Below are positions 4,608 through 57,385 of a DNA stretch of 64,000 bases, piece by piece. The number at the start of each line of letters is the position of its first letter. Position 1 is the stretch's first letter. The position numbers and the translations under genes are program-made. Source of the stretch: Candidatus Kryptonium sp. (GTDB lineage: Bacteria > Bacteroidota > Ignavibacteria > Kryptoniales > Kryptoniaceae). Location: assembly GCA_025060635.1 (NCBI GenBank), contig JANXBN010000001.1, positions 565,284 through 629,283 of the forward strand. Direction: 5' to 3'. The notes beneath the pieces are model-generated. The model was not told the DNA's origin. It saw nothing but the letters and a program-made list of their open reading frames with translations, and did not search any database.

Positions 4608-7033
4608 AGATCGCTTTTTTATTTGAATCTGAACCTACCTCTGAACAAATTCAGGCATATAAATGGGTCAGGGCGAGAACTGGTTGTGCCTTTAAAGTTG
4701 AAGTTGAAAAAATTTTTGAAACGAACTTAAATGATTTTAATATAATTTGGTGGCACTACGACAAAAATTTTACACTTCCAGATTTTGCAAGGGACGAGAA
4801 TTTTAAATCGGTTATAACTGATTTTCTAAATCATGGGGGTAATTTGCTTTTAACTTTGTCCGCGATGAAGCTCTTAAATGAAATCGAGATTGAACCGATA
4901 GAACCTGATTTTGAAAGTTTTGAACTTAAATCTGAAATTCCGATTGGATTTGTTTCTTTTTTCGGTCATCCTGTTTTTAGGAAATTAAAAAATGGTGTTG
5001 ATGTATTTCTCGCAAAGCGAGTTGATAAATTCTTAACTATTGCTTATGTGAAGCGAGCGCCAGAAAAGTTAAGGATAGTTGCCGTTGAAAAATTAGGTAG
5101 AAAGATAAATTACGATAAGAAAATTTTGTTTGAATATGAAAACGGAGGCAGAGTAATAGCAATAGGTGGAAATGTTTATTTTTCTGCACTTGATAATCCG
5201 TTCTTTCACAATCTTGATCGGCTTGTTCTGAACTCGCTTCTTTATTTAAACAATCCAAAAAAGTTTCCCGAACCGAGAACATATTGGATTTTTAGTGGTA
5301 AAATTGAAAAAGTTGATCTCGCAATTGAACAAAAAGCGTTGAGAACTGCACATAAAAAAATAGGTGATAAGCACACTGGTCTTTCATTTGAAGATGGTCA
5401 AGATTTTCTTGTGCAAGGCGATAAAATTTATGCAAAGGTTTCAGGTATTGAAATAGAGCAAATATCAATCCCACCGTTTCAGTTGATTGACAGATTCAAA
5501 ATTTATGTCAAAAGCGAAGAAAAATTCATATCGCCGGAAAGTGCACAAATTAGATTCAAACCAGAATCACTTTTGATGGAATTTGAAATTGATAATGTGA
5601 AATTTAAAGAGACGATATTTGCGCATCCGAAAAAGCCAGCTTTGATTTTAAATTTTCTCATAACCTCGGAAAGAGATTTTGAAATTTGTCTTGAGATTAA
5701 AATCTCGCCGAAAATTTTGAATCTATCAACTATACCACTTAAAGACTTTTTCTATGGATGCGAAGAAAAACTGAAATGTGTTTATGTGTTAAATGATAAA
5801 CTTTTTGCTTTGTTTCTGGGTAGTCCAAAGAGGTTTGAGTTATTTGATTTCAGAGTTGAGGATGATTTAAGGGTTAAAATCTATTACCGAATTTCTTCTG
5901 GCGTTGAAAAAGCATTTAATTTTGCAATTGTTGGCGATGTGAAACATCCATCTTCAAATGAAGATATCGCAAAAAGCGCAAAAGAAATCTATAAATACGC
6001 ACTCGTTTTTGCCCATAAGGTATTTAAAGAAAATTTAAAATCTGTAAAAGATGGATTCAGGAAGCGACTTTTAATTTTAACACCTGATGAGGAATTTAAC
6101 AGAAATTTCAAGATTGCTTTATCTTGTTTCCCAAAGTTTGTGAAAAATGTTAAGGGTCTCGGCAATTTCCTTGTTGATGATTTGAACGATGAAATTGTGG
6201 ATTATGGAAAAGTTTTGCAGATTCTTCCTTTGATGTTAAAAATTGGTGAATATGAAATTGTAAGAGACACGCTTGAATTTGGTGGAAGATGTATGAGTTT
6301 AAATGGGGAGATACCATCGGTGTTATCGCTATCGGGGACTTTTGAGTATGAAAGAGATTTGAGAACAGAATATATCAAAGTTTGTGCTGAATATCTCCGC
6401 TCTTCAAAAGATAAACTTTTTGCGAAGTTCACTTGGCAAAGGTTGAAAAAAATGATTGAGAACTGTAAAGTTGCCGATCTCGGGAAAGATGTGGTTGACT
6501 CACTTCTTTTATTTGCAAAAGTTTTGAAGGATGAAGCGTGGATTAAAAAATTGAGCGATCTGGAAGTAGAAGAAAAACATCATAGAAATTTTAATAAGGA
6601 AAGTTTTGAAGATGTTCTTGATGTTAACTCAGCAATTTCGCTCGGAATGTTCATTGGCAATGTTTTGAGGAGGTATTGTATTTTTGATGTTGATTCATTT
6701 GAGAAAAAAATTTATTTTTCACCGCTAATTACGGAAAGTTGGGAATTTTGGGAGATCAGAAACTTGAGAATACAAAATATGAGGTTGAATGTCTCGTTGA
6801 AAAGAGAAGGAAACTTCATGCGATTTTGGTTTAGAAAAAAGGATCTGCCCGAGGTCAAAATTATTTTTGAGCCAAGATTTGAAGAAAAAATTTGGATTGA
6901 AAAAGTTTTAATTGAGGATAAATTAGTTGAAAATTTAAAAGTTGACGAAAGCGGGGCTTGGTTAGAGTTTTCTTTTAGATTTGAGAAGGAAGTAAAAATT
7001 TTTTTCAAGAGAATCTCGCTTGAAAAATCTTGA
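4604..7033 (+). CDS. Large hypothetical protein; N-terminal amidotransferase-like/DUF4960-like region plus divergent glycogen-debranching-like C-terminal region
   Basis: 809-aa ORF overlapping the upstream gene (ATGA); WWH..., GGNLLLT motif; glycosidase assignment is weak. Confidence 0.45.
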   Translation: MKIAFLFESEPTSEQIQAYKWVRARTGCAFKVEVEKIFETNLNDFNIIWWHYDKNFTLPDFARDENFKSVITDFLNHGGNLLLTLSAMKLLNEIEIEPIEPDFESFELKSEIPIGFVSFFGHPVFRKLKNGVDVFLAKRVDKFLTIAYVKRAPEKLRIVAVEKLGRKINYDKKILFEYENGGRVIAIGGNVYFSALDNPFFHNLDRLVLNSLLYLNNPKKFPEPRTYWIFSGKIEKVDLAIEQKALRTAHKKIGDKHTGLSFEDGQDFLVQGDKIYAKVSGIEIEQISIPPFQLIDRFKIYVKSEEKFISPESAQIRFKPESLLMEFEIDNVKFKETIFAHPKKPALILNFLITSERDFEICLEIKISPKILNLSTIPLKDFFYGCEEKLKCVYVLNDKLFALFLGSPKRFELFDFRVEDDLRVKIYYRISSGVEKAFNFAIVGDVKHPSSNEDIAKSAKEIYKYALVFAHKVFKENLKSVKDGFRKRLLILTPDEEFNRNFKIALSCFPKFVKNVKGLGNFLVDDLNDEIVDYGKVLQILPLMLKIGEYEIVRDTLEFGGRCMSLNGEIPSVLSLSGTFEYERDLRTEYIKVCAEYLRSSKDKLFAKFTWQRLKKMIENCKVADLGKDVVDSLLLFAKVLKDEAWIKKLSDLEVEEKHHRNFNKESFEDVLDVNSAISLGMFIGNVLRRYCIFDVDSFEKKIYFSPLITESWEFWEIRNLRIQNMRLNVSLKREGNFMRFWFRKKDLPEVKIIFEPRFEEKIWIEKVLIEDKLVENLKVDESGAWLEFSFRFEKEVKIFFKRISLEKS

Positions 7034-9273: not shown

Positions 9274-9933
9274 TTACTTTTGCTTTAGATATTTTTTCTC
9301 AATTTCGGTGATTTTGTTCAATCTCTGGAGATGTCTTCCACCTCCGAAGTTGGTCTCAAGGAAAACCTTTATTATTTCCTTTGCAAGTTCGCTCCCGATC
9401 ACTCTAGCGCCAAGTGTTAAGACATTTGCGTCGTTGTGTTCTCTACTTATCTTTGCAGTAAATTCATTATGACAACATGCTGCTCTTATTCCGGGAACTT
9501 TGTTAGCGACAATTGATGATGCAACACCGGTGCCATCAATCATTATCCCACGCCAAGCTTTTCCAGAGATAATAGAATACGCAACTGCATAGGCAAAATC
9601 AGGGTAATCAACCGATGATTCAGAATTTGTCCCAAGATCAAGGACTGAATAGCCAAGATCAGAAATAAATTTTTTTAGTTCCTCTTTGAGTTTAAAACCG
9701 GCGTGATCGCTGGCGATTGCAACTATCTTTTTACCATCTGCTTTTGGTTCTGGTTTTAATGGATAATCAAATTTTTGAGGAGTATCGCTTTTTTCAATAA
9801 ATTTGATTCTCAATTGAAGTGCTTTATCTCTTGCGGATGGCGTAACAATTGTATTTTTGTCAATTTCAATTTCCGTTTTTCCTTGGTTGAAAAAATCAAC
9901 TACTGTTTTTTCTGTTATAAGTTTTTTGGGCAT
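9274..9933 (-). CDS. rpiB: Ribose-5-phosphate isomerase B with ~65-aa N-terminal extension
   Basis: ASDHAG, DYPD, REHNDANVL, GGRHLQR; catalytic region reads IDGTG. Confidence 0.88.
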   Translation of the reverse strand: MPKKLITEKTVVDFFNQGKTEIEIDKNTIVTPSARDKALQLRIKFIEKSDTPQKFDYPLKPEPKADGKKIVAIASDHAGFKLKEELKKFISDLGYSVLDLGTNSESSVDYPDFAYAVAYSIISGKAWRGIMIDGTGVASSIVANKVPGIRAACCHNEFTAKISREHNDANVLTLGARVIGSELAKEIIKVFLETNFGGGRHLQRLNKITEIEKKYLKQK

Positions 9934-13974: not shown

Positions 13975-15465
13975 TCAACTTCTGCGCCCATTAAACTTAT
14001 CAACTAATGCCTGAACCAAATTTCCTACGATTATTGTTGTTCCAGCGCCAATGAATGTATGCCAAGTCCAGGCTATTTTCGTGTTTAAAATTACATAAAC
14101 CATCATCAAAACTCCGGATATAAATGCAATCAATGCGCTGTTTTCGTTAACATTTTTAGATAAAACCCCGAGGAGAAATGTCCCAAGTAGTCCGCCATAT
14201 GTAAATGAAGCAATGCTTAAAGCAAGTTCAACTACTGTTCTTTCTGTCCTCATGAAAAACATCGCTGATCCAACAAGAAGAATTGCCCATATCGCAGTTA
14301 TTATTCTTGAAACAATTAATTCTTTCTTCTCATCTATATTTTTTCCGAAGTATGGTTTATAGATATCAATCATAGCCGATGAAGCAAGGGAACTCATTGA
14401 GCCAGCAAGAGTTGACATAGCAGCTGCAAAAAGTCCAGCTATTATCAAACCGGAGATTCCAGATGGCATATATTTCACGATGAAATCAGCGAAAACCTCA
14501 TTTGGATTCATATTTGCACCATTGTAAAAGGTATAAAGCATTAAACCGAGAAACAGAAACATGAAAAATTGAAGTGCAACGATGAAACCAGTTGTAATTA
14601 ACGCTTTTTGACTGTTCTTCAAAGAATCGGTTGTAAGAAGTCGCTGGACAATAAGTTGGTCAGCTCCGTGTGAAGCCATTGAAAGGAAGGCACCGCCAAT
14701 TAAACTTGCAAGCAATGTATATGGTTGGGAGAAGAAATCTTTTAAAGGTTTATCAAAACCCCAATTTATAATTTTGAATTTTTCCGCTGAAAAACTTAAC
14801 ACTTGTGAAATCCCACCATCAATTTTGCTTCCAAGCACTATGATCGCTGCAATAGCTCCACCTATGTAGATAAACATTTGAACGACATCCATCCATATAA
14901 CTGCTCTAACGCCACCAATAAATGTGTAAAGAAAGGTCACAAACGAAACGACGGCAATTGAGGTTATGTAAATTTGAGCATCTGACCAATTGACGAATTG
15001 TCCTGAATTTTTCAAAATTATCGCAAGAGGTATTGCAGTTGTAAAAAGGCGCACACCATCCGCAGCAAGTCGTGTTACCATGAAAACAATTGAGGCAAAA
15101 TTTCTTACTTTTCGTCCGAATCTTATTCCAAGGAACTGATACGCTGTTGCAAGTTCCCCACGATAGTAAGCTGGAAGGAAAATGAAACTTACAGCAATTC
15201 TTCCGAGAATATATCCAAACGCAAGCTGCAGGAAATTTAAGTTTGTTGCATATGCAACCCCTGGTATGCTTAAAAATGTCAACGCGCTCGTCTCTGTTGC
15301 AACGACAGCGAAGCAAACCGCAAGCCATGGAATTCGTCTCGCTCCAAGGAAATAATCCGCTGTGTTTTTTTGCTTTCCGCCAGAAATTATTCCAAAGATT
15401 AAAACCCCGAGAAGATAGGCAACAACGATTAACCAATCAATTAAACCGAAATTCATAAAGTTCAT
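13975..15465 (-). CDS. Sodium:solute symporter (SSS family)
   Basis: DYFLG, VATETSALTF, GGVRAVIWMD, DQLIVQRLL, AAAMSTL; many TM helices. Confidence 0.92.
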   Translation of the reverse strand: MNFMNFGLIDWLIVVAYLLGVLIFGIISGGKQKNTADYFLGARRIPWLAVCFAVVATETSALTFLSIPGVAYATNLNFLQLAFGYILGRIAVSFIFLPAYYRGELATAYQFLGIRFGRKVRNFASIVFMVTRLAADGVRLFTTAIPLAIILKNSGQFVNWSDAQIYITSIAVVSFVTFLYTFIGGVRAVIWMDVVQMFIYIGGAIAAIIVLGSKIDGGISQVLSFSAEKFKIINWGFDKPLKDFFSQPYTLLASLIGGAFLSMASHGADQLIVQRLLTTDSLKNSQKALITTGFIVALQFFMFLFLGLMLYTFYNGANMNPNEVFADFIVKYMPSGISGLIIAGLFAAAMSTLAGSMSSLASSAMIDIYKPYFGKNIDEKKELIVSRIITAIWAILLVGSAMFFMRTERTVVELALSIASFTYGGLLGTFLLGVLSKNVNENSALIAFISGVLMMVYVILNTKIAWTWHTFIGAGTTIIVGNLVQALVDKFNGRRS

Positions 15466-15809
15466 TTTTTTGTTTTTAAAGAAAGAGCATCTTCAACAGT
15501 AGGTAAGACTTGGAAAAGTGAATCAAGTTTCGTTATTTTTAACAAGTTCAAAATCCTATCGCCCACCCCAGTGAGAATTACAACTCCCTTGTTTTCGCGC
15601 ATCCTTCTTTCACAAAATAAAAGCGAGCTTAGACCAGAGCTATCGCAATATTCAACTTGAGATAAATCAATTATTAATTTCTTCATTCCACTTTGACATA
15701 AAGCCAAAAATTCTGCTTTCAATTCAGGCGCTATGATCGCATCAAGTTTTTTCTCGTTCAACTTGAAAACTAATGTATCTTTGACCGGCTTTAATAGTTC
15801 AAAGTTCAT
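15462..15809 (-). CDS. STAS-domain anti-sigma factor antagonist (RsbV/SpoIIAA-like)
   Basis: IDLSQVEYCDSSGLSSL with phosphorylatable Ser; LKITKLD. Confidence 0.9.
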   Translation of the reverse strand: MNFELLKPVKDTLVFKLNEKKLDAIIAPELKAEFLALCQSGMKKLIIDLSQVEYCDSSGLSSLLFCERRMRENKGVVILTGVGDRILNLLKITKLDSLFQVLPTVEDALSLKTKK

Positions 15810-21674: not shown

Positions 21675-21702
21675 TAAAGTAACTCGGGATTGAATCCGAT
21701 AA
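21675..21702 (+). promoter_or_regulatory. sigma-28 promoter for fliC
   Basis: TAAA(21675-21678)-N16-TCCGATAA(21695-21702). Confidence 0.8.
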
Positions 21703-21715
21703 ATAAAAGTGAAAT

Positions 21716-21768
21716 GTCAGGGCAAGGAAGCCCTGACGAATGTAAAACAAACAAAAAACAAGGAGGTT
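21716..21768 (+). promoter_or_regulatory. CsrA/RsmA-type sites in the fliC leader
   Basis: 8-bp hairpin GTCAGGGC-AAGGAA-GCCCTGAC with GGA in the loop, plus CAAGGAGG overlapping the SD. Confidence 0.7.
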
Positions 21769-21775
21769 ATAAGCC

Positions 21776-22618
21776 ATGGCATTCTCACAGGGAACCCGCA
21801 TCAACACAAACATCGCAGCGATGAACGCCTACAACGCTCTCAACGATATCAATCGTGAATTGGGCGTTCATCAACTCCGTCTCGCAACGGGGAAGAAGAT
21901 CAACTCCGTCGCCGATGATCCCTCTGGTTACACGATTGCAAAAAAATTGCAAGCAAGAAGCCGTGGGCTTGCACAGGCAATAAACAATGTCGGCGACGCG
22001 AAAAATGTTCTTTCAATTGCTGAAGGCGGTTTGCAGAAAATTAATGACTTGCTTGTTTCAATTAAGGAGCAGGTAACAAGAGCTGTAAACGGTGGCTTGA
22101 GCGAAGATGAACTTCAGGCGATTGCTACACAAATCAATGATTACCTTGCTGAAGTTGATGATATCGTGAAACAAACAAAGTTCAACGGAATGCAATTGCT
22201 CAGAGGAGCTGGTGGTGGTGACTGGGTTGCAGGTAGAGATTTCCAAGTCGGAAGCGATAATGGCGACACTCTCACAGTTAAATTTGACATAACCGTTGAT
22301 AGCACACTTGTAAAATCAGGCGCTGTCGCCACATCTGACTTGGTGACCTCGTTTATCACCACAGTTGATAACGCAATAAAGACAGTTACACAGCAACTTC
22401 AATATGTTGGTTCTTTAATTAATCGTCTTGATGTTAAAGAGGCAAACTTGATAGTGTCAATGACCAACACTGATGCAGCTGCAAGCAGAATTTTTGACGC
22501 CGACATCGCTAAAGAGCAGGTTGAAGTTGCGAAACTTATGATACTCCAGCAAACAGCCACAGCTCAACTTGCTCAAGCAAACGCTGCTCCGCAAGGAGTG
22601 CTTGCATTGTTTAGATAA
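21776..22618 (+). CDS. fliC: Flagellin (short, 280 aa)
   Basis: RINTNIAAMNA, RLATGKKINSVADD, KFNG..LL, SRIFDAD.A.E, AQAN..PQ.VL.L. Confidence 0.96.
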   Translation: MAFSQGTRINTNIAAMNAYNALNDINRELGVHQLRLATGKKINSVADDPSGYTIAKKLQARSRGLAQAINNVGDAKNVLSIAEGGLQKINDLLVSIKEQVTRAVNGGLSEDELQAIATQINDYLAEVDDIVKQTKFNGMQLLRGAGGGDWVAGRDFQVGSDNGDTLTVKFDITVDSTLVKSGAVATSDLVTSFITTVDNAIKTVTQQLQYVGSLINRLDVKEANLIVSMTNTDAAASRIFDADIAKEQVEVAKLMILQQTATAQLAQANAAPQGVLALFR

Positions 22619-23018: not shown

Positions 23019-24452
23019 ATGTCGTTTTATTTCAATACAAATAACAACATTAACCCTATAGATAACTTACTGCAAATATTCAAACGAGCCGAAAGCAATA
23101 AACTCATCAAGCCAGTTGAAACACAAAAAGATCTAACCCAAGCTAAAAACTCGGTATTTCTGGAACTAAAAACAAAATTAAATTCACTTCTTTCAATAGT
23201 TAAAGATCTGTCAACAAGAGGGGTAAATTCAAGATTTCAAGTTAAAACAGCTGAAGTCTCAGATCAAACTGTTTTATCAGTAAATGTTGAGCCGGTTGCG
23301 ACACCTGCAAACCATACGATTTTAATTCAACAACTTGCGAAAGAGGATTTAATTCTTTCCTCAAAATTTTCAAATGACGGAATGGAAATTTCAACAGCAG
23401 AGGGAACAGGAATAAAAACGATAAGAATCACGGTAAATGGGGTTTCAACTGATGTAAATATCACAATAGGAAACGAAGATACAAATAAAGTGATTTTAAA
23501 TAAAATTGCATCTGCAATAAATTCTGCTGATTTTGATGTTAAAGCAAGCGTTATATCTGATACTGCATCAACTTCGCGACTTGTTATAAAAAGCAAACAT
23601 ACGGGAAGTCAATACGCAATTTCTCTTGCTGATATTCAAGGAAACTTGCTTGCAAACATTGGGCTTGATTCAAATGTTATTAGCGGTCGCATCACTGCAG
23701 GCGATACAACAGGTGGATATCTTTACAATGATATCAATTCGCTTGATGCAAAACTTATCGTTGACGGTATAAATATAATTCGTGGATCAAATAAAATAAA
23801 CGATGTAATTCCTGGCGTCACAATTGAACTAAAGAAATCTCAAAATCCAAACGATAACCCAGTAACTGTCGCAATTAAAACTGGTACTGCCAGAATTAAA
23901 GAGACAATTGATTCGTTTGTGCAAATCTACAATGATTTGATAAAGTTCATAAATGATAAAACGAAAACCACATCGGATGGAACTCGTTCTATTTTAAGTG
24001 GTGATTATGTTCTATTAAAGTTGAAAGCAGACCTGCGGCTTATAGTAAGCAGTCCTGTTTCATCAGGAACTTTAAAATTTTTAAGTGATATCGGAATCAA
24101 GATTAATCCTGACGGAACGCTTAAGATTTCTGATAACTCAAAACTTGATAAGTTGATCTCTACAAATGTTTCACAGGTAGAGGAACTTTTTAACTCTTCA
24201 GACGGGATAGCGATTAAATTAAAGGAATTTATAAATCCTTTTGTCCAAATCGGTGGGGTAATTGAGCAAAGAATTAACTTTGGAAAGGAACAGATAAAAC
24301 GGTTTGACGAGAGGATAAAATCTTTGAACAAAATCATTGAACAAAGAGCCGAAGATTTGAGAAAGCAATTTGCCCAACTTCAATCTCTTTACACTGCTTT
24401 TGCAAGGCAACAAGCAATAGCTCAACAATTAATGCAGATGTTCCTGTCATGA
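23019..24452 (+). CDS. fliD: Flagellar filament cap protein
   Basis: I.QLA, S..TG, DAKLIVDG....R.SN.I.DVIPGVTIEL, FV..YNDL, L.DIGI, QFAQL. Confidence 0.92.
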   Translation: MSFYFNTNNNINPIDNLLQIFKRAESNKLIKPVETQKDLTQAKNSVFLELKTKLNSLLSIVKDLSTRGVNSRFQVKTAEVSDQTVLSVNVEPVATPANHTILIQQLAKEDLILSSKFSNDGMEISTAEGTGIKTIRITVNGVSTDVNITIGNEDTNKVILNKIASAINSADFDVKASVISDTASTSRLVIKSKHTGSQYAISLADIQGNLLANIGLDSNVISGRITAGDTTGGYLYNDINSLDAKLIVDGINIIRGSNKINDVIPGVTIELKKSQNPNDNPVTVAIKTGTARIKETIDSFVQIYNDLIKFINDKTKTTSDGTRSILSGDYVLLKLKADLRLIVSSPVSSGTLKFLSDIGIKINPDGTLKISDNSKLDKLISTNVSQVEELFNSSDGIAIKLKEFINPFVQIGGVIEQRINFGKEQIKRFDERIKSLNKIIEQRAEDLRKQFAQLQSLYTAFARQQAIAQQLMQMFLS

Positions 24453-25147: not shown

Positions 25148-25396
25148 ATGAGGATAAATGAAATAAGCGGAAAAATACCGCTGCCTGAAGAGAACAGCGG
25201 GCGGAAAACGCAAAAAACGGAGGAGAAGAAAGATAAAATTGAGATTTCAAGTGAAGCAAGGGAAATCTATAGATTGAAAAGAGCGGAAAGAATTGAAGAA
25301 GTTAAAAAGAAGATTGAAACGGGCTTTTATAACTCTGATGATGTGATTGATAAAGTCGCAGAGAAAGTATACAGTCTATTTAAAATAGGCAAGTAG
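25148..25396 (+). CDS. flgM: Anti-sigma-28 factor FlgM
   Basis: DKIEISSEA, RAERIEEVKKKIETGFY...D..VAEK. Confidence 0.88.
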   Translation: MRINEISGKIPLPEENSGRKTQKTEEKKDKIEISSEAREIYRLKRAERIEEVKKKIETGFYNSDDVIDKVAEKVYSLFKIGK

Positions 25397-25446
25397 ATCC
25401 CGTGATCTATCAACCATAGCACCTCCCCCCGCCGTAGTTCAGTGGT

Positions 25447-25479
25447 AAAAAAACCCGAACTGTGTGTTCGGGTTTTTTT
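25447..25479. terminator. Bidirectional intrinsic terminator after flgM
   Basis: AAAAAAACCCGAAC-tgtgt-GTTCGGGTTTTTTT. Confidence 0.9.
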
Positions 25480-28661: not shown

Positions 28662-29615
28662 TTGATCGTGAAAAATAGAAAAAGAATAAAGCCACCAGCA
28701 TTGAAAAAGGGGGATGTAATTGGAATCGTCTCCCCTGCAAGCTCCCCAGATGATTTTTCAAGAATTGACAAAGGAGTTGCTTACCTTGAAAGTTTGGGAT
28801 ATAGGGTTAAGCTAGGTAAACATATCTACAGACGAAATGGGTATCTTTCTGCGAATGATGATGAAAGAGCTGAGGATTTAAATGAAATGTTTTCGGATCC
28901 GCAAGTCCGTGCGATAATTTGTGTAAGAGGTGGATATGGCACGCCGAGAATTCTTGATAAAATCAATTACAGCGCGATCCGAAAAAATCCAAAGATTTTC
29001 GTTGGCTATAGCGATATAACTGCGCTTCAACTTGCGATTTTCAAAAAAACTGGGCTGATAACTTTCTCAGGTCCGATGCTTGCGGTTGATATTTATTCCG
29101 ATTTTGATCCATATGCTGAGGAATTTTTTTGGAGAATTTTGACTTCAAAATCGGACAAAATTCAAATAAAAAATCCTGACGATAAAGACATCAGCGTTTT
29201 AAGTCATGGAAAATCAACGGGAATCCTGCTTGGAGGAAACTTATCTCTATTGGCTTCGGTAATTGGAACTAAATTTCAACCGGATTTCAGTAATTCGGTC
29301 CTTGTAGTTGAGGACATTGGGGAAGAGCCGTATAGAATTGATAGATATTTCTCTCAACTGAAAAACTCGGGAGTACTTAGCAAAATTAAGGCTTGTGTTC
29401 TCGGACAGTTTACAGATTGCGCCCCTAAGGAGCCAGAGAAAAGTTTGACCCTTGAACAAATTTTTCAAGATTATTTAGGCAATCTTAAGATTCCTGTTAT
29501 AGCAAATTTAAGTTACGGGCATATCCCAAAGAAAATCACTCTCCCGATTGGAGCCAAGATAAGAATTGATACAAAGAGAAAAATGATAGCAATAGTTGAA
29601 AGCGTTGTGTCTTAA
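28662..29615 (+). CDS. ldcA: LD-carboxypeptidase (S66 family)
   Basis: RGGYG, GYSDIT nucleophile, GGNL, LEDI-like VEDIGE, YGH. Confidence 0.92.
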   Translation: MIVKNRKRIKPPALKKGDVIGIVSPASSPDDFSRIDKGVAYLESLGYRVKLGKHIYRRNGYLSANDDERAEDLNEMFSDPQVRAIICVRGGYGTPRILDKINYSAIRKNPKIFVGYSDITALQLAIFKKTGLITFSGPMLAVDIYSDFDPYAEEFFWRILTSKSDKIQIKNPDDKDISVLSHGKSTGILLGGNLSLLASVIGTKFQPDFSNSVLVVEDIGEEPYRIDRYFSQLKNSGVLSKIKACVLGQFTDCAPKEPEKSLTLEQIFQDYLGNLKIPVIANLSYGHIPKKITLPIGAKIRIDTKRKMIAIVESVVS

Positions 29616-31434
29616 AATAGTGATCTTCATGATTTTAACCTCAACTTTGTCATCGCAAAATCTGCTTCAGTTCAAGTTTAATCGCGAATTTTCAAACTTT
29701 TATTGGAATGGTCTTTTAAATTTTCACACATCAAGAGGTTCTTTTGACATTTATATTTACGAGAAGTTTTCAGAAATGATAATAAAAACGGACAGAAAAT
29801 TTGTTCGTGACGATAACGATTTCAAGTTTAGATTTCATAAAAGCATTTCCTCTCGTTTTAAGATATCGCTTCTTTTAAACTCTGTTTCATTTGTTGATGA
29901 TAAACTTGTGGGATTCAGCAGGGCATCTTCAACTGATCTATTATCTGGTATTAAGGTGATGCCATTTTCAAATTTCGGTTTTTCTTTTTTAAGTGGATAT
30001 AAACTTGATTATCAAATGAAACAAAAAGACGATGGCTGGGTTTACAGGATTTCTTCTGATACGACGGATTTATTGATCTCTGATTATCATCTAAAGACAA
30101 ATATAGAGCACCAGGAGGATTTTATTAAGCCAAGAAAAAACATAACTTCATCGCTCAATCTAACCGTATGGCGAAAATTTACCGCTGATGTTGAAAGCAA
30201 AGCGGAAATTTTTATCAAGCGCGTTAAGCGTGACTTTTATTTCTATGCTGATTCAAATATACAAAAAACTTACGGTGTTAATTTAAACATTGAGGGAAGA
30301 GATGAGAGGGCAATAACAGGAGTTTTGCTTTTGGACTATCCATTGATCAATAACTTAACTTTAAATTTAAACTTTGCTTTAAACAGACGAAACATAGCGA
30401 AGATGGTGCGTTATAAAACGCCTTCGCTTTATGATTCAGATATTGAAGAATTTACACTTAACATGAGCACGGGTTTATCATATTCAACGGAAAAATTTAA
30501 AACAAAATTTGAAATAGGATACTCCGAGCGAAACGAAATTCACAAACCTAAAAAACATGAGTTAACAACCGAGAGCATGTTTTTGAGGATAAAACAAAGC
30601 GAAGAGCAGAAAAACAATAAAAGTTTGCGGAGGATTGTAAATGGTGAAATTTCTTTTGATCCTTTGGATTGGTTAACAGTAGGCGGGATGTTTTATGTTT
30701 CGCTTTTTAGATACGACACACCAAGTGCTTTAAATGATGATGATAGAGATGAGCTCTTACAGATTTTCCGCGTTTTTCTGAAATTAGATATCTCAAGAGA
30801 AATTCGGATGGAGATACCGCTTGACCTAAATGGACAACATCTTGTTTATATCTTTGCAACAAGAAGCGTGAATAACAATTGGAACAGAATAATTAAACTT
30901 TCCCCTTCAATTATTTTTGAAAACGAGCGCTTGAGGAACAGAGCAAGTTTTTCAGTCCTTGCGAATTACACAGTTTATGATTTTGAGACGATCACACCTA
31001 TGGTGAAAAGTTATGTTTTCAGACAATTTTATTTTAATGATTCAATTTCCTTTCCAGTGTTTAGTAGGTTGAGTTTTAGCGGAAATTTGCAAGTGATACT
31101 TTCAGAAAGCGGGAGATTGAAATGGAGAGAATTTAAAACAAAACCAGTAATTTTTATAAGCAACAGCGAATATAGTTTTAAATTAAACTACTCCTTGAAT
31201 AAAAGTGCAAGATTTTCGGTAGGTTATCGTTTCTTTAACGAGAGAAGATATAGATTCGTTGAACTTAACAGAGTTCCTGATACGAGGATAATTGCGTCAG
31301 GTCCTATATCAGAAATTGAGATAGCAAATGAAAAATTTAAATTAAACTTTGACGGTTGGATGGAGCGTTTGAGGTTGGGTGGCAAGGTAAGTGAAGTGCC
31401 AATTTTGAATTTAAATTTGACAATAAACTTATGA
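29596..31434 (+). CDS. Large uncharacterised outer-membrane beta-barrel protein
   Basis: Signal peptide; extensive amphipathic beta strands; ends LNLTINL. Confidence 0.6.
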   Translation: MKALCLKIVIFMILTSTLSSQNLLQFKFNREFSNFYWNGLLNFHTSRGSFDIYIYEKFSEMIIKTDRKFVRDDNDFKFRFHKSISSRFKISLLLNSVSFVDDKLVGFSRASSTDLLSGIKVMPFSNFGFSFLSGYKLDYQMKQKDDGWVYRISSDTTDLLISDYHLKTNIEHQEDFIKPRKNITSSLNLTVWRKFTADVESKAEIFIKRVKRDFYFYADSNIQKTYGVNLNIEGRDERAITGVLLLDYPLINNLTLNLNFALNRRNIAKMVRYKTPSLYDSDIEEFTLNMSTGLSYSTEKFKTKFEIGYSERNEIHKPKKHELTTESMFLRIKQSEEQKNNKSLRRIVNGEISFDPLDWLTVGGMFYVSLFRYDTPSALNDDDRDELLQIFRVFLKLDISREIRMEIPLDLNGQHLVYIFATRSVNNNWNRIIKLSPSIIFENERLRNRASFSVLANYTVYDFETITPMVKSYVFRQFYFNDSISFPVFSRLSFSGNLQVILSESGRLKWREFKTKPVIFISNSEYSFKLNYSLNKSARFSVGYRFFNERRYRFVELNRVPDTRIIASGPISEIEIANEKFKLNFDGWMERLRLGGKVSEVPILNLNLTINL

Positions 31435-31865
31435 AGAAATTTCGTTTCAAGTCCGATATCGCAAGCTTCCCATCCAATATTTCATCTTTGAAAAAGTTTG
31501 AAAAATTTCTTGAGAGATTGAAGAAAAAACATAAAATTTCTGATGAAGATTTTTATAGAATTTCTCTCGCTTCAAGTGAGGCTTTTATAAATGCAATTGT
31601 CCACGGTAATAAGCTTGATTCTTCCAAAAAGGTAACCGTTAAGTTCAGAGCTTTTAAAAAAAGTTTTGAAATTGAAATTCAAGATGAGGGCGAGGGATTT
31701 AAAACTACCATTTTTTTAGATCCAACATCAGCGGAGAATTTGCTTAAAGAGTCCGGCCGTGGAATTTATATCATGAAATCTTTTTCTGATGCTGTAAAAT
31801 TTTACAAAACTAAAAAGGGTTTCAAAGTAAAAATAAAAATAAAAAAGCGATCGGGCGTCCCTTGA
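31431..31865 (+). CDS. rsbW: Anti-sigma factor / Ser kinase (RsbW/SpoIIAB-like)
   Basis: SEAFINAIVHGN, IQDEGEGF, ESGRGIYIM. Confidence 0.85.
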   Translation: MKKFRFKSDIASFPSNISSLKKFEKFLERLKKKHKISDEDFYRISLASSEAFINAIVHGNKLDSSKKVTVKFRAFKKSFEIEIQDEGEGFKTTIFLDPTSAENLLKESGRGIYIMKSFSDAVKFYKTKKGFKVKIKIKKRSGVP

Positions 31866-31882
31866 GGGATCGCCCAATCGCC
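31841..31882 (-). terminator. Strong intrinsic terminator (16-bp stem, one bulge, U6)
   Basis: GGCGATTGGGCG-A-TCCC-TCAA-GGGA-CGCCCGATCGC-TTTTTT on the minus strand. Confidence 0.85.
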
Positions 31883-31971
31883 AACGGAGGTGCTACGGCG
31901 GGGTATCAATCTAAAGAACGACATTTCATAAAAGTGCTTGTCAAAGTGCTTATTCAGGTGCATCTCTCAAT
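31841..31971 (-). ncRNA. Candidate sigma-54-dependent small RNA (~130 nt)
   Basis: Promoter and terminator bracket a region with no plausible ORF; four GCACYT repeats; C-rich segment just before the terminator. Confidence 0.6.
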
Positions 31972-31981
31972 TAAAAACTTA

Positions 31982-31998
31982 TGCAAATACTATGCCAA
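31982..31998 (-). promoter_or_regulatory. sigma-54 (-24/-12) promoter
   Basis: Minus strand TTGGCATAGTATTTGCA = GG-N10-GC, matching TGGCAC-N5-TTGCA. Confidence 0.75.
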
Positions 31999-32096
31999 AT
32001 CAAATTTGCCGTGTTTGTTAAAATTTCAATAAATTTTTAGCGAATTTTTATAAGTTAAAAGTCATAATTTTGGACAAAAAGTGACAAATTTGACCA

Positions 32097-49888: not shown

Positions 49889-51060
49889 TGATTAAAAATC
49901 CAACTGAAATTTTTGTTTATCTCGTTTTATTAATTTTCGCAATATACAAAGCAAGCCAGATAAAATTTTTATCAAAGTTTTTCAGATACTTGCCACCAGT
50001 TATTTGGGTTTATTTCCTTCCGATGCTTTCATCGGCGTTAGGGTTGATCCCGCGTGAGTCTGAATTTTATACTTGGGCGAGAACTTACCTTTTACCATCT
50101 GCTCTCGTTTTGCTTTTGCTTTCTGCAAATATACCAGTTATAATGAAGCTTGGTCTCAAAGCAATAGTTATGTTTTTGACTGGTTCATTCGGTATAATCA
50201 TTGGAGGTCCGATAGTTTTGTTAATTTTTGAGCGCTGGTTACCTCCTGATGCGTGGAAGGGTTTGGGAGCTTTATCTGGGAGTTGGATGGGTGGAAGTGC
50301 AACGATGCTTGCCATAGCACAAAGCATTGGGACTCCTGAGTCATTGCTTGCTCCCTTAATAGTTGTTGATACCGTCGTTGGATATGGATGGATGGGGATT
50401 GTGATATTTTTGTCAGCATATCAAGACAAGGTGGACGAATTCAATCGCGTTGATAAAGCGATTCTAGTGGAGTTAAACAAAAGAATGCAAGAAGTAAAGG
50501 AATCAAAGCGAAGATTTTTGAGTTTTATTGATTTCGCAACAATGATTTCTATTTCGTTCGTAATTGGAATTATATCTTTAAAGATGGGTTCTATCTTACC
50601 AGAGATTGGAGTAATAATATCTCACTATACTTGGGGAATTATAATCGCAACCGCTATTGGTGTTGTTTTGTCTTTTACAAAGTTGTCGGAGCTTGAGCAT
50701 TCTGGCTCAACCCATGTTGGAAATTTCATGCTATATCTTTTGCTCGCATCGGTTGGTGCAAGAGCAAATATCTATGGAATTTTTGAAACCCCCATTTTCA
50801 TGCTTGTTGGGATCGTTTGGATAATGATCCATGCTATATGTTTGTTTGTGGTTGGAAGATTGATAAAAGCGCCAATGTTCTTAATGGCAACAAGTAGCCA
50901 AGCAAACATAGGCGGACCAGTTACAGCTCCAATTGTTGCATCAGTTTATCAAAGTGCTCTTGCACCGGTTGGACTTCTAATGGCTGTAGCTGGAAATATC
51001 ATTGGAATTTACGGCGGTCTTTTATGTTCGCAACTTTGCTACATAGTGTCAAGATTCTAA
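49885..51060 (+). CDS. DUF819 family membrane protein
   Basis: L.GSW.GG...M.A, S.ANIGGP.TAP.VA, about 11 TM helices. Confidence 0.85.
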   Translation: MMIKNPTEIFVYLVLLIFAIYKASQIKFLSKFFRYLPPVIWVYFLPMLSSALGLIPRESEFYTWARTYLLPSALVLLLLSANIPVIMKLGLKAIVMFLTGSFGIIIGGPIVLLIFERWLPPDAWKGLGALSGSWMGGSATMLAIAQSIGTPESLLAPLIVVDTVVGYGWMGIVIFLSAYQDKVDEFNRVDKAILVELNKRMQEVKESKRRFLSFIDFATMISISFVIGIISLKMGSILPEIGVIISHYTWGIIIATAIGVVLSFTKLSELEHSGSTHVGNFMLYLLLASVGARANIYGIFETPIFMLVGIVWIMIHAICLFVVGRLIKAPMFLMATSSQANIGGPVTAPIVASVYQSALAPVGLLMAVAGNIIGIYGGLLCSQLCYIVSRF

Positions 51061-51576
51061 TTCTTGTGGATCAATTTTACAAAGCAAAAACTTATGAATA
51101 TCCGCCTTTACTTGATAATCCATTGAGATAAGCATAACAATCGCCCTTGTATTGTTAATTTTTTCAATTATCCCAATAAATCCTTTTAGTGGTCCGTTTA
51201 TTACAACGACATAGTCACCTGGCCGAAGTTCTGAATCAGTTTCAGGTTTATCAGGTATATAGATGTGATTGTTCCAGTTCACTCTTTCTTTTATTTCTTC
51301 TATTATTGTTTCTTTTATTGGCTTTGGTTTTCCGTTGACTCCTAAGATTTTTCTTACCCCCCGTGTGTATATTACAAGATCAAACAAACTCGGTTTTAAT
51401 TTTGCAAATACGTAATTTGGAAATAACGGGACGATAACTTTTTTTCTTTTTTCTTTAACTATGCGAATTTCTTGAATTTTGGGATTGAAAACCTCAATGT
51501 TTGCAGAATTTAAATATAATTCAACGAGATTTTCTTGTTTTGGTTTAGTCTGCAAGACGTACCAACTTAAATCCAT
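51049..51576 (-). CDS. NusG paralogue, RfaH-like transcription antiterminator (start ATG 51576 or GTG 51597)
   Basis: WYVLQTKPKQE, PLFPNYVF, TRGVRKIL (NGN domain); GDYVVVINGPLKGF.G (KOW domain). Confidence 0.85.
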   Translation of the reverse strand: MDLSWYVLQTKPKQENLVELYLNSANIEVFNPKIQEIRIVKEKRKKVIVPLFPNYVFAKLKPSLFDLVIYTRGVRKILGVNGKPKPIKETIIEEIKERVNWNNHIYIPDKPETDSELRPGDYVVVINGPLKGFIGIIEKINNTRAIVMLISMDYQVKADIHKFLLCKIDPQELES

Positions 51577-51716
51577 CTTTTTAAGAGCACCTCCCACTCG
51601 TAATTTGTTTTTAAAAGAAAAAAGAATCCATTACTAAATTTTAAAAAATTGCCCCGCCGTAATGTTAATAGGGTTTAAGATGATTAATTCAAAAATGTAA
51701 CTCTTCTTTTTCGCCC

Positions 51717-54038: not shown

Positions 54039-54089
54039 GATGTTAAGAACAAAATTTGTTTTTTACCCGTGAACTAACAATTCATCTTC

Positions 54090-54118
54090 AATATAAAAAT
54101 TCAAACAATAAAAGTCAA
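54090..54118 (-). promoter_or_regulatory. sigma-70 promoter for wzc
   Basis: Minus strand TTGACT(54118-54113)-N17-TATATT(54095-54090). Confidence 0.65.
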
Positions 54119-54258
54119 GCTTTATCTGTGTGATGTGGATTACAGACTTAAAATTTATTGTATAATAATCCACACCATTTGTTTAATATTAGCCATTTGC
54201 TCTTAAAACTTGTGGCTTTAGGTAACTTAAAGATTTGAAAATTGCAAGAGCATATTAA

Positions 54259-54274
54259 TGGCACAGGGTTTGAA
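54259..54274 (+). promoter_or_regulatory. Probable sigma-54 promoter for the flhF operon (variant -12)
   Basis: TGGCAC-AGGGT-TTGAA; perfect -24 element, GA instead of GC at -12. Confidence 0.55.
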
Positions 54275-56608: not shown

Positions 56609-57385
56609 ATGTCCGTGAACTTTGCTAAAAGAGAACAAAATGAAACGGTTGAAAACCTTTTCGCAATATACAAAAAGACGCGTGATCCAGAAGTTAAGAA
56701 GAAGTTGATCACTCTTTATATTGATTTCGTTCGGGGCATTGTCAGAAAAATGGGCTTGAATTATTCTGGTGCATTGCTTGGTGAAGAAGATCTCGTTGAT
56801 ATCGGGATAATAGGTTTGAGCGATGCAATTGACAAGTTTGATCCAAAAATTGGTGTTAAGTTTGAAACATATGCTTATACGCGAATTAGGGGAAGCATAA
56901 TTGATGAGATAAGAAAAATAGACAATCTTCCGAGATCGGTTAGAAATAAACTTGATCAAATAGACAAGGCAAGGATAAAAATTGAGAACAAAGTTGGAGA
57001 TAGAGCAGGAGATTGGCTTGTTGCTGACGAAGCTGGGTTAACCATTGAGGAGTATAATCAAATCACAACGCTTGAGCATTCTTCTAAAAATGTATCTTTC
57101 AATTTAATGATAGGTGAGAACACGGAGCTCGGGGAAATGATAGAAAGCGATGATAAAAATCCAGAAGAAATTTTAATTGAAAATGAAATTAAACAGGCGA
57201 TAGCGGATGAGTTGAAAAAGCTTTCGGAGAAAGAGCGTCTTGTCATGGTGCTTTACTATTATGAGGAATTGACATTTAGAGAAATTGCCGATGTTTTAAA
57301 GTTAAGTGAATCAAGAGTATCACAATTACATACGAGCGCATTGAGGAAAATTCGTGAATCTCTGAAAAGTAAATTTTCATTTTAA
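56609..57385 (+). CDS. fliA: Flagellar sigma factor sigma-28
   Basis: DL...G.IGL.DAI.KFDP, FETYA..RIRG.I.DE.R, LYYYEELT..EIA.VL.LSESRVSQLH. Confidence 0.95.
   Translation: MSVNFAKREQNETVENLFAIYKKTRDPEVKKKLITLYIDFVRGIVRKMGLNYSGALLGEEDLVDIGIIGLSDAIDKFDPKIGVKFETYAYTRIRGSIIDEIRKIDNLPRSVRNKLDQIDKARIKIENKVGDRAGDWLVADEAGLTIEEYNQITTLEHSSKNVSFNLMIGENTELGEMIESDDKNPEEILIENEIKQAIADELKKLSEKERLVMVLYYYEELTFREIADVLKLSESRVSQLHTSALRKIRESLKSKFSF

What the first reader, a model, noticed from the sequence alone, without database searches (positions are those of the whole stretch)
31841..31998. Unannotated sigma-54-dependent small RNA divergent from rqcH
Seen: a near-consensus -24/-12 promoter (TTGGCATAGTATTTGCA, minus strand) predicts a start near 31971. 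About 90 nt later comes a 16-bp terminator with a U6 tract. The only ATG-initiated frame (31963) runs past the terminator, so the unit looks non-coding. Its last ~25 nt are antisense to the rsbW 3' end. Established: sigma-54-driven sRNAs (Qrr, GlmY, CrcZ) are major regulators. Inference: this is a trans-acting sRNA, possibly in the same sigma-54 regulon as the flhF operon. I do not recognise it as a known Rfam family.
Basis: partly seen in the sequence, partly recalled or inferred. Interest (0 to 1): 0.85.

Follow-up and report, generated by a model that had tools for sequence, protein, structure and literature searches.

The report
Conserved small RNA gene in Kryptonium
Between two protein genes of an uncultivated hot-spring bacterium (Candidatus Kryptonium) lies a conserved gene for a roughly 130-base non-coding RNA with a sigma-54-type promoter, several copies of the short motif GCACCU and a strong terminator; it matches no described RNA family and probably regulates other genes.

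Summary
On the minus strand, TGGCATAGTATTTGCA (31997-31982) is an exact -24/-12 match. It is followed about 87 nt after the predicted start (~31971) by a 15-pair hairpin and U6 (31882-31841).

The unit is present in every syntenic Kryptonium-like locus I could fetch: 12 distinct sequences, with flanking proteins 50-89% identical. TGGCAC-N4-TTTG is kept at fixed spacing. The terminator has compensatory changes in 5 pairs. No ORF is conserved, and Rfam has no match.

New findings:
- The unstructured body carries 2-4 tandem copies (12-14 nt period) of (A)GCACCU.
- One more copy sits in a 26-nt core, identical in every homologue found, that contains the anti-Shine-Dalgarno heptamer CACCUCC.
- The same promoter pattern occurs at only one other place in the DNA examined: upstream of flhF, where it is invariant in 5 lineages.
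- A NusG-paralogue leader carries 10-nt and 9-nt perfect complements to the core; the 9-nt one is its ribosome-binding site.

Not shown: rpoN or an activator in the genome, the transcribed strand, the 5' end, or any target. Metatranscriptome contigs cover the locus but extend 16-25 nt upstream of the predicted start.

Verdict: a real new sRNA family, sigma-54 dependence likely, mechanism inferred.

The parts
32021..32038 (-). Conserved upstream block AAAAATTTATTGAAATTT, 24-41 nt upstream of the -24 element. Its role is unknown. It could be an activator or IHF-type site, or belong to the divergent rqcH promoter.
   Evidence: TTGAAA is invariant or nearly so in 12 lineages while the neighbouring columns vary.
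31982..31997 (-). Sigma-54-type -24/-12 promoter TGGCAT-AGTAT-TTGCA.
   Evidence: Exact consensus match. T-GG-A and TTTG are invariant at fixed spacing in 12 distinct homologues. The same pattern occurs elsewhere only upstream of flhF.
31841..31971 (-). Predicted non-coding RNA of about 131 nt. The 5' end is predicted from promoter geometry only; the 3' end is the U tract.
   Evidence: Covariance model R1 finds exactly one copy in each syntenic Kryptonium-like locus (112-140 bits) and nothing else. There is no conserved ORF and no Rfam family.
31932..31961 (-). Three tandem motif copies with a 12-nt period: GCACCU (31961-31956), GCACUU (31949-31944) and GCACUU (31937-31932). They lie in a region predicted to be single-stranded.
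   Evidence: This is the only cluster of 3 or more GCACYT within 100 nt in the window (P about 7e-5 after correcting for the number of 95-nt windows). Motifs are conserved while spacers vary, and the tandem copy number is 2-4 in relatives. RNAalifold predicts no helix of more than two pairs in this region.
31910..31920 (-). Conserved U-rich segment CGUUCUUUAGA. CGUUCUUU is nearly invariant (a 1-nt U-run length difference in three sequences). It resembles a boxA or an Hfq-type U-rich site, but that resemblance rests on my own recall.
31878..31903 (-). Core CCCCGCCGUAGCACCUCCGUUGGCGA, identical in every homologue found. It holds the last GCACCU copy (31893-31888) and the anti-Shine-Dalgarno heptamer CACCUCC (31892-31886).
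   Evidence: It is identical in all 12 distinct sequences. Of these, 21 nt are invariant by construction for the loci found by the DNA scan. The core is also intact in the 5 loci found through the protein.
31841..31882 (-). Intrinsic terminator: a 15-pair hairpin with one bulged A (31882-31847) and U6 (31846-31841). There is no U tract on the plus strand.
   Evidence: All 165 cells are paired, 5 pairs show compensatory changes, 0 of 500 shuffles reach the observed score, and slid controls pair at 31-47%.
54259..54274 (+). Second promoter of the same type, TGGCACAGGGTTTGAA, 48 nt upstream of the flhF start codon. It heads the flhF-flhG-fliA operon and may belong to the same regulon.
   Evidence: TATGGCAC-N4-TTTGAA is invariant in 5 lineages within a variable intergenic region.
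51586..51595 (-). Candidate target site 1: GGGAGGUGCU, the Shine-Dalgarno region of the NusG-paralogue mRNA (CDS 51576-51049), 9 nt before its AUG. Nine of its nucleotides, GGAGGUGCU, are a perfect complement of AGCACCUCC in the core.
   Evidence: GGAGGUGC is kept in 4 of 5 lineages.
51652..51661 (-). Candidate target site 2: UACGGCGGGG in the same leader, a 10-nt perfect complement of CCCCGCCGUA in the core.
   Evidence: ACGGCGGG is kept in 4 of 5 lineages in an AT-rich leader.
25418..25437 (+). Related element AGCACCUCCCCCCGCCGUAG in the 3' UTR of a flgM-like ORF (25148-25396), just before its terminator (25447-25479).
   Evidence: Both 9-mers, AGCACCTCC and CCCGCCGTA, occur exactly three times in the window and always together. 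AGCACC(U/C)CCCC is kept in L026 and L022.

Best explanation
This is the gene of a small non-coding regulatory RNA, about 131 nt here and about 120-155 nt in relatives. It is found only in Candidatus Kryptonium-like bacteria (Kryptoniota, FCB group).

Proposed working:
- It is transcribed on the minus strand from a sigma-54-type -24/-12 promoter (31997-31982) and ends at a strong intrinsic terminator (31882-31841). Both are inferred from sequence and conservation.
- Apart from the terminator the RNA is single-stranded.
- It displays 2-4 tandem copies of (A)GCACCU and one further copy inside a 26-nt core, identical in every homologue found, that contains CACCUCC, the anti-Shine-Dalgarno sequence.
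- I propose that it acts in trans by pairing these C/U-rich motifs with G-rich ribosome-binding regions of the form (GG)AGGUGC(U), which would block translation initiation. This step is inferred.
- In this window the best candidate target is the leader of a specialised NusG paralogue (CDS 51576-51049).
- Because the flhF-flhG-fliA operon has the only other promoter of this type, the RNA is probably switched on together with the flagellar programme. This step is also inferred.

My sub-confidences:
- Real, selected non-coding RNA gene: about 0.9.
- Sigma-54-type promoter: about 0.7.
- Base-pairing to SD-like sites as the mode of action: about 0.4.
For: - Organism: the RqcH protein is 100% identical to one named Candidatus Kryptonium sp.. 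L001 is 89% identical.
- Conservation: 12 distinct homologues sit in the same gene order (LD-carboxypeptidase, a 612-aa protein, RsbW-like, the RNA, RqcH). RqcH is 60-89% identical and RsbW-like 50-89% identical at the protein level.
- Unbiased sample: all 5 loci reached through the protein rather than through the RNA sequence carry the RNA.
- Promoter: T-GG-A and TTTG are invariant with no indel between them, whereas flanking columns vary and carry indels. The pattern TGG[CT]A[CT]-N4-TTTG[ACT] hits only this promoter and the flhF promoter in all the Kryptonium DNA held. The flhF copy is invariant in 5 lineages.
- Terminator: 100% pairing, 5 compensatory pairs, 0 of 500 shuffles.
- Non-coding: no conserved start or frame, and indels of 12-14 nt.
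- Motif: the cluster is unique in the window (P about 7e-5), has a 12-14 nt period, and varies in copy number. The region is predicted unpaired.
- Target lead: the 9-mers AGCACCTCC and CCCGCCGTA each occur exactly 3 times in 64 kb and always co-occur. In the NusG-paralogue leader their complements are the SD and a block about 57 nt upstream of the SD. Each is kept in 4 of 5 lineages.
- Shine-Dalgarno use is sparse in this window. Strong SDs are found mainly on flagellar genes and a few others, so an anti-SD-like RNA could be selective.
- Expression: two hot-spring metatranscriptomes have contigs over the homologous locus. One has depth 54, against 8-25 for the upstream gene and about 0-2 for rqcH.
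Against: - No rpoN gene and no sigma-54 activator were found in the window, in 10 kb beyond it, or in any fetched locus. The rest of the genome could not be searched.
- The -12 C of the consensus is kept in fewer than half of the lineages; the rest have A or T.
- No upstream activator site was identified.
- The metatranscriptome contigs have no strand. They extend to 5397 (ending in an Illumina adapter) and to 5406 in L023. That is 16-25 nt upstream of the predicted start, inside the proposed promoter. A sigma-54 start alone does not explain this.
- In the K. thompsonii lineage the same DNA also reads as a sigma-70-type promoter, TTGGCA-18-TATAAT, with 11 of 12 matches.
- Target evidence is thin. 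There is one candidate among 63 genes. A conserved SD can be explained by translation alone. One lineage has GAGGUGAUC instead, and one has lost the upstream block although its RNA is unchanged.
- In the RNA, the order of the two complementary blocks is the reverse of what a continuous duplex with that leader would need.
Confidence: 0.55

Rival explanations
1. The RNA is a protein sponge rather than a base-pairing regulator. The tandem, evenly spaced, single-stranded AGCACCU motifs would bind several copies or subunits of an RNA-binding protein and titrate it, as CrcZ does for Hfq/Crc, CsrB for CsrA and GlmY for RapZ. Because the motif resembles the 3' tail of 16S rRNA (AUCACCUCC), the partner could be a protein that recognises that tail.
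For: - The motif has a 12-14 nt period, its copy number varies between lineages (2-4 plus 1), the motif is conserved while spacers vary, and there is no secondary structure. This is the anatomy of known sponge RNAs, and it explains why 6-7 nt are repeated rather than one long seed.
- Only one mRNA candidate was found in the window.
- Sequestration of the anti-SD by bS21, bS18 and bS6 is documented in Bacteroidia (PMC7797042, PMC9976891).
Against: - No candidate protein was identified.
- The genome's CsrA binds GGA motifs (my own knowledge), and these repeats contain none.
- The perfect 9- and 10-nt complements in the NusG-paralogue leader are not explained by this reading.
Confidence: 0.25
2. 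The RNA gene is real, but its promoter is not sigma-54 dependent. TTGGCA would act as a -35 box for the housekeeping sigma factor with a -10 box 17-18 nt downstream, or a promoter further upstream (TTGAAA-N16-TAAATT) would start transcription at about the TGGCAC.
For: - There is an 11-of-12 sigma-70-type match, TTGGCA-18-TATAAT, in L023.
- Metatranscriptome contigs reach 5397 and 5406 in L023, upstream of the sigma-54 start.
- TTGAAA upstream is conserved.
- A classical TTGACT-17-TATATT promoter is conserved in front of the Wzz-like gene, so this organism uses -35/-10 promoters.
- rpoN was not demonstrated.
Against: - The -10 candidates lack the key A2 or T6 in most lineages, and the scanner finds no such promoter in the window, L022 or L016.
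- Five lineages have CTGGCA.
- An invariant TTTG in a sigma-70 spacer has no explanation, whereas it is the -12 element of sigma-54.
- The flhF copy keeps TGGCAC-N4-TTTGAA but has no conserved -10 box.
Confidence: 0.15
3. The conserved sequence serves the plus strand. It would be the long 3' UTR of the RsbW-like operon. Alternatively the two convergent units form an antisense pair in which read-through of either one controls the other, for example read-through of the RNA's terminator into rsbW, possibly helped by the NusG paralogue.
For: - The RsbW-like gene has no terminator of its own on the plus strand, because no U tract follows the hairpin.
- The association with this gene is kept in every lineage.
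- The X10 contig runs continuously from inside rsbW to the promoter edge.
- GCCGUAGC in the core resembles the ops element GGCGGUAGC of RfaH-dependent operons. That comparison is from my own recall and was not tested.
Against: - The U tract, the promoter and the motif orientation all fit the minus strand.
- Motif conservation with variable spacers and varying copy number is not what a passive 3' UTR shows.
- The 15-pair hairpin with U6 should terminate efficiently.
Confidence: 0.1

Closest known systems
Qrr1-5 of Vibrio (Rfam Qrr)
   Same: About 100-nt trans-acting sRNAs with a sigma-54 -24/-12 promoter, a long invariant single-stranded seed region and an intrinsic terminator. They act by pairing at ribosome-binding regions.
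   Different: There is no sequence or structure match. Qrr RNAs have several stem-loops and occur as paralogues, whereas this RNA is single-copy, unstructured and carries a tandem motif. The activator (LuxO for Qrr) is unknown here.
CrcZ/CrcY of Pseudomonas
   Same: Sigma-54-dependent sRNAs whose function rests on several repeated single-stranded motifs. Copy number matters, and they act as sponges.
   Different: CrcZ is about 400 nt, and its motifs are A-rich (AAnAAnAA) and bind Hfq/Crc. Here the motif is GCACCU and the partner is unknown. There is no Rfam match.
RsaE/RoxS of Firmicutes
   Same: These sRNAs have two or three unpaired C-rich motifs that pair with G-rich Shine-Dalgarno regions of several mRNAs. 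Redundant seeds are the closest analogy to the proposed mechanism (PMC6158497 for RsaE).
   Different: The sequence is different (CCCC motifs presented in loops), the promoter is not sigma-54 dependent, and the phylum is different. There is no Rfam match.
GlmY of Enterobacteria
   Same: A sigma-54-dependent sRNA. In E. coli, overlapping sigma-54 and sigma-70 promoters drive it (my own knowledge), which is a precedent for the dual reading seen in L023.
   Different: GlmY is a structured decoy for RapZ with no tandem motif. There is no Rfam match.
CsrB/RsmZ family
   Same: Multi-motif sponge RNAs. This genome does encode CsrA with FliW.
   Different: The defining GGA motifs are absent from these repeats.

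Membership tests
Sigma-54-dependent sRNA genes (functional class) | -24 GG and -12 GC elements with the canonical spacing (TGGCAC-N5-TTGCW), correctly placed before the transcript | tested here: met
   The match in the window is exact. The -24 element and TTTG are invariant at fixed spacing in 12 lineages. Caveat: the -12 C is A or T in more than half of the lineages.
Sigma-54-dependent sRNA genes (functional class) | rpoN present in the genome | not testable with these tools
   No rpoN was found in the 64-kb window, in 10 kb beyond it, or in about 445 kb of fetched loci. A second conserved promoter of the same type at flhF is indirect support.
Sigma-54-dependent sRNA genes (functional class) | An enhancer-binding activator and its upstream binding site | tested here: inconclusive
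   No Sigma54_activat protein was found nearby. A conserved block lies at 32021-32038 and an inverted repeat, TGTGAT-N4-ATTACA, lies upstream of the flhF promoter. No site shared by the two promoters was recognised.
Sigma-54-dependent sRNA genes (functional class) | A transcript that starts 11-13 nt after the -12 element | tested here: inconclusive
   Metatranscriptome contigs cover the homologous locus but have no strand, and they reach 16-25 nt upstream of the predicted start.
Qrr, GlmY/GlmZ, CrcZ, CsrB/RsmZ, RsaE and all other Rfam 15 families | Match to the family covariance model | tested here: not met
   Nothing reaches a gathering score. At E-values up to 10 there are only chance microRNA-type hits of 13-18 bits, lying in or next to the finding's coordinates.
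Rho-independent terminator | A G+C-rich hairpin followed directly by a U tract, maintained by compensatory change | tested here: met
   15 pairs and U6, 100% of 165 cells paired, 5 compensatory pairs.
Small protein gene | A conserved start codon and reading frame | tested here: not met
   The longest ORFs differ in start, frame and sequence between lineages.

The most novel reading that the evidence does not exclude
The RNA would be an anti-Shine-Dalgarno mimic in a lineage that, like Bacteroidia, hardly uses Shine-Dalgarno sequences. By displaying 3-5 copies of (A)GCACCU(CC) it would do one of two things. It could mask the few strong SD sites, which sit on flagellar and a handful of other genes including a specialised NusG. 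Or it could titrate proteins that hold the 16S rRNA 3' tail, such as bS21-type sequestration or Era. Either way, a sigma-54 signal would switch a whole class of SD-dependent mRNAs on or off. The similar element in the flgM 3' UTR would belong to the same circuit.
Probability: 0.15. Interest if true: 0.8.

Novelty: new member of a known kind. Interest (0 to 1): 0.5.

Why it matters
To my knowledge, no regulatory RNA has been described for Kryptoniota, an uncultivated hot-spring phylum known only from metagenomes. My literature searches turned up none, though they were not aimed at that question. This RNA is the clearest candidate in the window.

It comes with a testable regulon link: the same rare promoter type heads the flhF-flhG-fliA flagellar operon.

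Its design is also unusual. Tandem anti-SD-like motifs sit in an organism with sparse SD use. If the motif works by mimicking the anti-SD sequence, the RNA would connect sigma-54 signalling with selective translation of SD-bearing mRNAs. That question is currently being studied in Bacteroidia ribosomes (PMC7797042, PMC9976891, PMC13000453).

If it is simply one more base-pairing sRNA, it is a solid but ordinary addition to the catalogue.

Tried and rejected
- Rfam, at gathering scores and at E-values up to 10, found nothing relevant. ARAGORN found only three ordinary tRNAs elsewhere.
- Small-protein reading: rejected, because no start or frame is conserved.
- Extra copies or paralogues: model R1 finds one copy per locus and none elsewhere.
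- The second exact sigma-54 match, at 9520, lies inside an rpiB-like gene and is taken as chance.
- Outgroup: RqcH relatives at about 40% identity have a different gene order and no such RNA upstream.
- rpoN or activator:
  - Pfam scan of about 59 window ORFs.
  - 10 kb beyond the window end.
  - Regex for GAFTGA and the RpoN box over all loci.
  - The Kryptonia paper and its supplements.
  - Nothing usable came of any of these.
- RNA-seq:
  - No RNA run holds the window's own strain.
  - The L029 lineage is absent from the runs found.
- RNAduplex over whole leaders gave long, unrealistic duplexes and was discarded. An exact-complement scan replaced it.
  - Its top hit is an 11-nt complement in the leader of the STAS gene at 15462-15809. 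It pairs with a spacer that is not conserved, so it was not pursued.
- A GAGCACCTCCCGC match in L001 lies inside a coding region and was dropped.
- A Bacteroidetes-type -33/-7 promoter reading of either TTTG block was considered and set aside, for three reasons:
  - The required TA and the spacing are not conserved.
  - Five lineages have CTGG in place of TTGG at the first block.
  - The organism shows a classical -35/-10 promoter elsewhere.
- An alternative pairing of GCCCG with the terminator's left arm (an anti-terminator) is not supported by covariation. This is my reading.
Full report
**Where the window comes from.** The RqcH-like protein next to the finding is 100% identical to a protein named 'Candidatus Kryptonium sp.'. 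The nearest genome loci are Kryptonium MAGs. DNA runs that hold the stretch are hot-spring metagenomes. NCBI places the genus in Candidatus Kryptoniota, FCB group. The window has 36% G+C.

**Check of the observation.**
- The minus strand reads TTGGCATAGTATTTGCAT at 31998-31981.
- TGGCATAGTATTTGCA is an exact match to TGGCAY-N5-TTGCW. It is one of two exact matches in the window. The other lies inside an rpiB-like gene.
- Twelve nt after the -12 C gives a start near 31971.
- From 31882 to 31847 the RNA forms a 15-pair hairpin with one bulged A, followed by U6 at 31846-31841. The plus strand has no U tract after the hairpin.
- The ATG frame from 31963 runs through the terminator.
- The RsbW-like ORF (HATPase_c_2, 31431-31865) overlaps the last 25 nt in antisense.
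- All points of the observation hold.
- A single promoter match is not statistically compelling on its own: the relaxed pattern has 2 hits against 0.59 expected.

**Relatives.**
- A scan of metagenome contigs with 21 nt of the core gave 13 Kryptonium-like loci and one chance hit, L028.
- Loci reached independently through the RqcH protein also carry the element: L001, L002, L030, L041 and L042.
- Together they give 12 distinct sequences.
- The gene order is always LD-carboxypeptidase, a 612-aa protein without Pfam domains, the RsbW-like gene, then the RNA convergent to it, then RqcH divergent from the RNA.
- Protein identities are 60-89% for RqcH and 50-89% for the RsbW-like protein.
- The next RqcH relatives (about 40% identity) have another gene order and no such element.
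- A covariance model built from the alignment finds exactly one copy per syntenic locus (112-140 bits) and nothing else.

**What is conserved.**
1. T-GG-A and TTTG of the promoter are invariant, with no indel between them. The AT-rich flanks vary and carry indels.
2. The motif (A)GCACCU is present as 2-4 tandem copies with a 12-14 nt period, and the spacers between copies vary.
3. CGUUCUUU is conserved.
4. The core CCCGCCGUAGCACCUCCGUUGGCGA contains a further GCACCU and the heptamer CACCUCC, which is the anti-Shine-Dalgarno sequence of 16S rRNA (established knowledge). Twenty-one of its nucleotides are invariant by construction in the scan-derived loci, but the core is equally intact in the five protein-derived loci.
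5. The terminator is conserved.

RNAalifold finds essentially no structure except the terminator; the only other pairing is a 2-bp mini-hairpin in the core. In the terminator all 165 cells pair and 5 pairs show compensatory change. No shuffle out of 500 reaches the observed score, and slid controls pair at 31-47%.

No start codon or frame is conserved. Rfam has no match at any threshold. The motif cluster is the only one of its kind in the window (P about 7e-5).

**The promoter question.**
- The pattern TGG[CT]A[CT]-N4-TTTG[ACT] occurs in all the Kryptonium DNA I hold only at this RNA and 48 nt upstream of the flhF start codon.
- At flhF, TATGGCAC-N4-TTTGAA is invariant in five lineages although the surrounding intergenic DNA varies.
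- flhF, flhG and fliA follow it.
- Two independent, conserved, correctly oriented instances of a -24/-12 arrangement are best explained by sigma-54. Flagellar operons are classical sigma-54 targets (established knowledge).

Against this:
- I could not find rpoN or an enhancer-binding protein in the window, in 10 kb beyond its end, or in any locus, and I could not search whole genomes.
- The -12 C is replaced by A or T in more than half of the lineages.
- In the K. thompsonii lineage the same DNA also scores 11 of 12 as a sigma-70-type promoter, TTGGCA-18-TATAAT. That reading fails in the window, L022 and L016. It also fails at flhF, which has no conserved -10 box.

**Expression.**
- No RNA run holds the window's strain.
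- For the K. thompsonii-like locus L023, two hot-spring metatranscriptomes hold the RNA.
- In run X10 a contig of depth 54 spans 4915-5397. The upstream gene has depth 8-25, and the rqcH 5' part has 0-2. That contrast argues for RNA rather than DNA carry-over.
- Run X13 has a contig at 5220-5406.
- Contigs carry no strand and drop minor variants.
- Both contigs reach 16-25 nt beyond the predicted start (about 5381), and the X10 contig ends in an Illumina adapter at 5397. Read-through from the RsbW-like gene could explain this, because that gene has no terminator of its own. A lineage-specific upstream promoter could also explain it. It remains unexplained.

**Mechanism.**
- The body is a single-stranded array of C/U-rich motifs.
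- Shine-Dalgarno use in this window is sparse. Most genes have A-rich leaders. Strong SDs sit on flagellin, fliD, fliA, an outer-membrane protein, an aldehyde dehydrogenase and a NusG paralogue.
- The 9-mers AGCACCTCC and CCCGCCGTA each occur exactly three times in the window and always together. The three places are:
  - the RNA itself;
  - the 3' UTR of a flgM-like ORF just before its terminator (sense orientation);
  - the leader of the NusG paralogue (complementary orientation).
- In that leader, GGGAGGUGCU is the ribosome-binding site 9 nt before the AUG at 51576, and UACGGCGGGG lies about 57 nt upstream of the SD.
- Both blocks are kept in 4 of 5 lineages in an otherwise poorly conserved leader.
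- In the flgM 3' UTR, AGCACC(U/C)CCCC is kept in three lineages.
- I therefore favour pairing of the RNA with GGUGC-containing ribosome-binding regions.

Weak points of this reading:
- There is one candidate in 63 genes.
- SD conservation has a trivial explanation.
- One lineage has the 16S-type GAGGUGAUC instead, and one has lost the upstream block.
- The order of the two blocks does not allow one continuous duplex.

The tandem, evenly spaced repeats with variable copy number fit a protein sponge equally well. The genome's CsrA-FliW pair is not the obvious partner, because the repeats lack GGA.

**Comparison with known systems.**
- The RNA works like the sigma-54-dependent sRNAs in its promoter (Qrr, GlmY, CrcZ).
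- In its body it works like either RsaE/RoxS (redundant C-rich seeds against SD regions) or CrcZ/CsrB (motif arrays that titrate a protein).
- It is a member of none of these families, since no Rfam model matches.
- It is a new family, so far confined to Kryptonium-like bacteria.

**Verdict.** This is a real, selected non-coding RNA gene (about 0.9). It has a sigma-54-type promoter that it shares with the flhF operon (about 0.7). It probably acts in trans through its anti-SD-like motifs, with pairing at about 0.4 and a sponge at about 0.25. It is a new member of a known kind and of moderate interest. Interest would be higher if the anti-SD-mimic reading proves right.

Noticed in passing
window 54259-54274 (+); L035-L038: A sigma-54-type promoter, TATGGCAC-N4-TTTGAA, lies 48 nt upstream of flhF (the flhF-flhG-fliA operon). 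It is invariant in 5 Kryptonium lineages and is the only other instance of the pattern in the DNA examined.
   Followed up: yes
window 54129-54144 (+) and 54168-54195 (+): A conserved inverted repeat, TGTGAT-N4-ATTACA, and a conserved block, ATCCACACCATTTGTT(T/C)AATATTAGCCA, lie 65-130 nt upstream of the flhF promoter. They are candidate activator binding sites. No counterpart was recognised upstream of the RNA.
   Followed up: partly
window 25148-25396 (+), 25418-25437, 25447-25479: An 82-aa ORF after flaG looks like the anti-sigma-28 factor FlgM (my reading of the sequence; not scanned). Its 3' UTR carries AGCACCUCCCCCCGCCGUAG just before a strong bidirectional terminator. AGCACC(U/C)CCCC is conserved in L026 and L022. 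This may be a 3'-UTR-derived regulator with the same motif.
   Followed up: partly
window 51049-51661 (-): This is a specialised NusG paralogue (sources call relatives RfaH or NusG) downstream of a Wzz/tyrosine-kinase gene. Its true start is probably the ATG at 51576 (175 aa, identical to P0121), not the GTG at 51597. Its leader has a conserved ACGGCGGG block and a strong SD.
   Followed up: partly
window, all gene starts: Shine-Dalgarno sequences are rare and most leaders are A-rich, as in Bacteroidia. Strong SDs are concentrated on flagellar genes (flagellin at 21776, fliD at 23019, fliA at 56609) and a few others.
   Followed up: partly
window 21700-21775 (+); L039 16701-17354: The flagellin leader has a hairpin presenting AAGGAAG plus an AAGGAGG SD, which is the two-site layout of CsrA-controlled flagellin mRNAs. 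fliW and csrA lie after motAB just beyond the window's end.
   Followed up: no
window 54089-54119 (-): A classical promoter, TTGACT-17-TATATT, is conserved in front of the Wzz-like gene. This organism therefore uses -35/-10 promoters rather than (or as well as) the Bacteroidetes -33/-7 type.
   Followed up: no
window 29596-31434 (+): A 612-aa protein without any Pfam domain is translationally coupled (ATGA overlap) to the RsbW-like kinase. It is always found with that kinase and the RNA (59-87% identical in relatives). A STAS-domain partner candidate lies far away, at 15462-15809.
   Followed up: no
window 31910-31920 (-): The conserved CGUUCUUUAGA in the RNA resembles the boxA element of rRNA antitermination sites, and GCCGUAGC in the core resembles the ops element of RfaH-dependent operons. 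Both resemblances are from my own recall and were not tested.
   Followed up: no
L023 5397 and 5406: Metatranscriptome contigs end inside the proposed promoter, one of them with an Illumina read-1 adapter. The homopolymer just upstream differs in length between strains (L018 versus L025), which may break assemblies there.
   Followed up: partly
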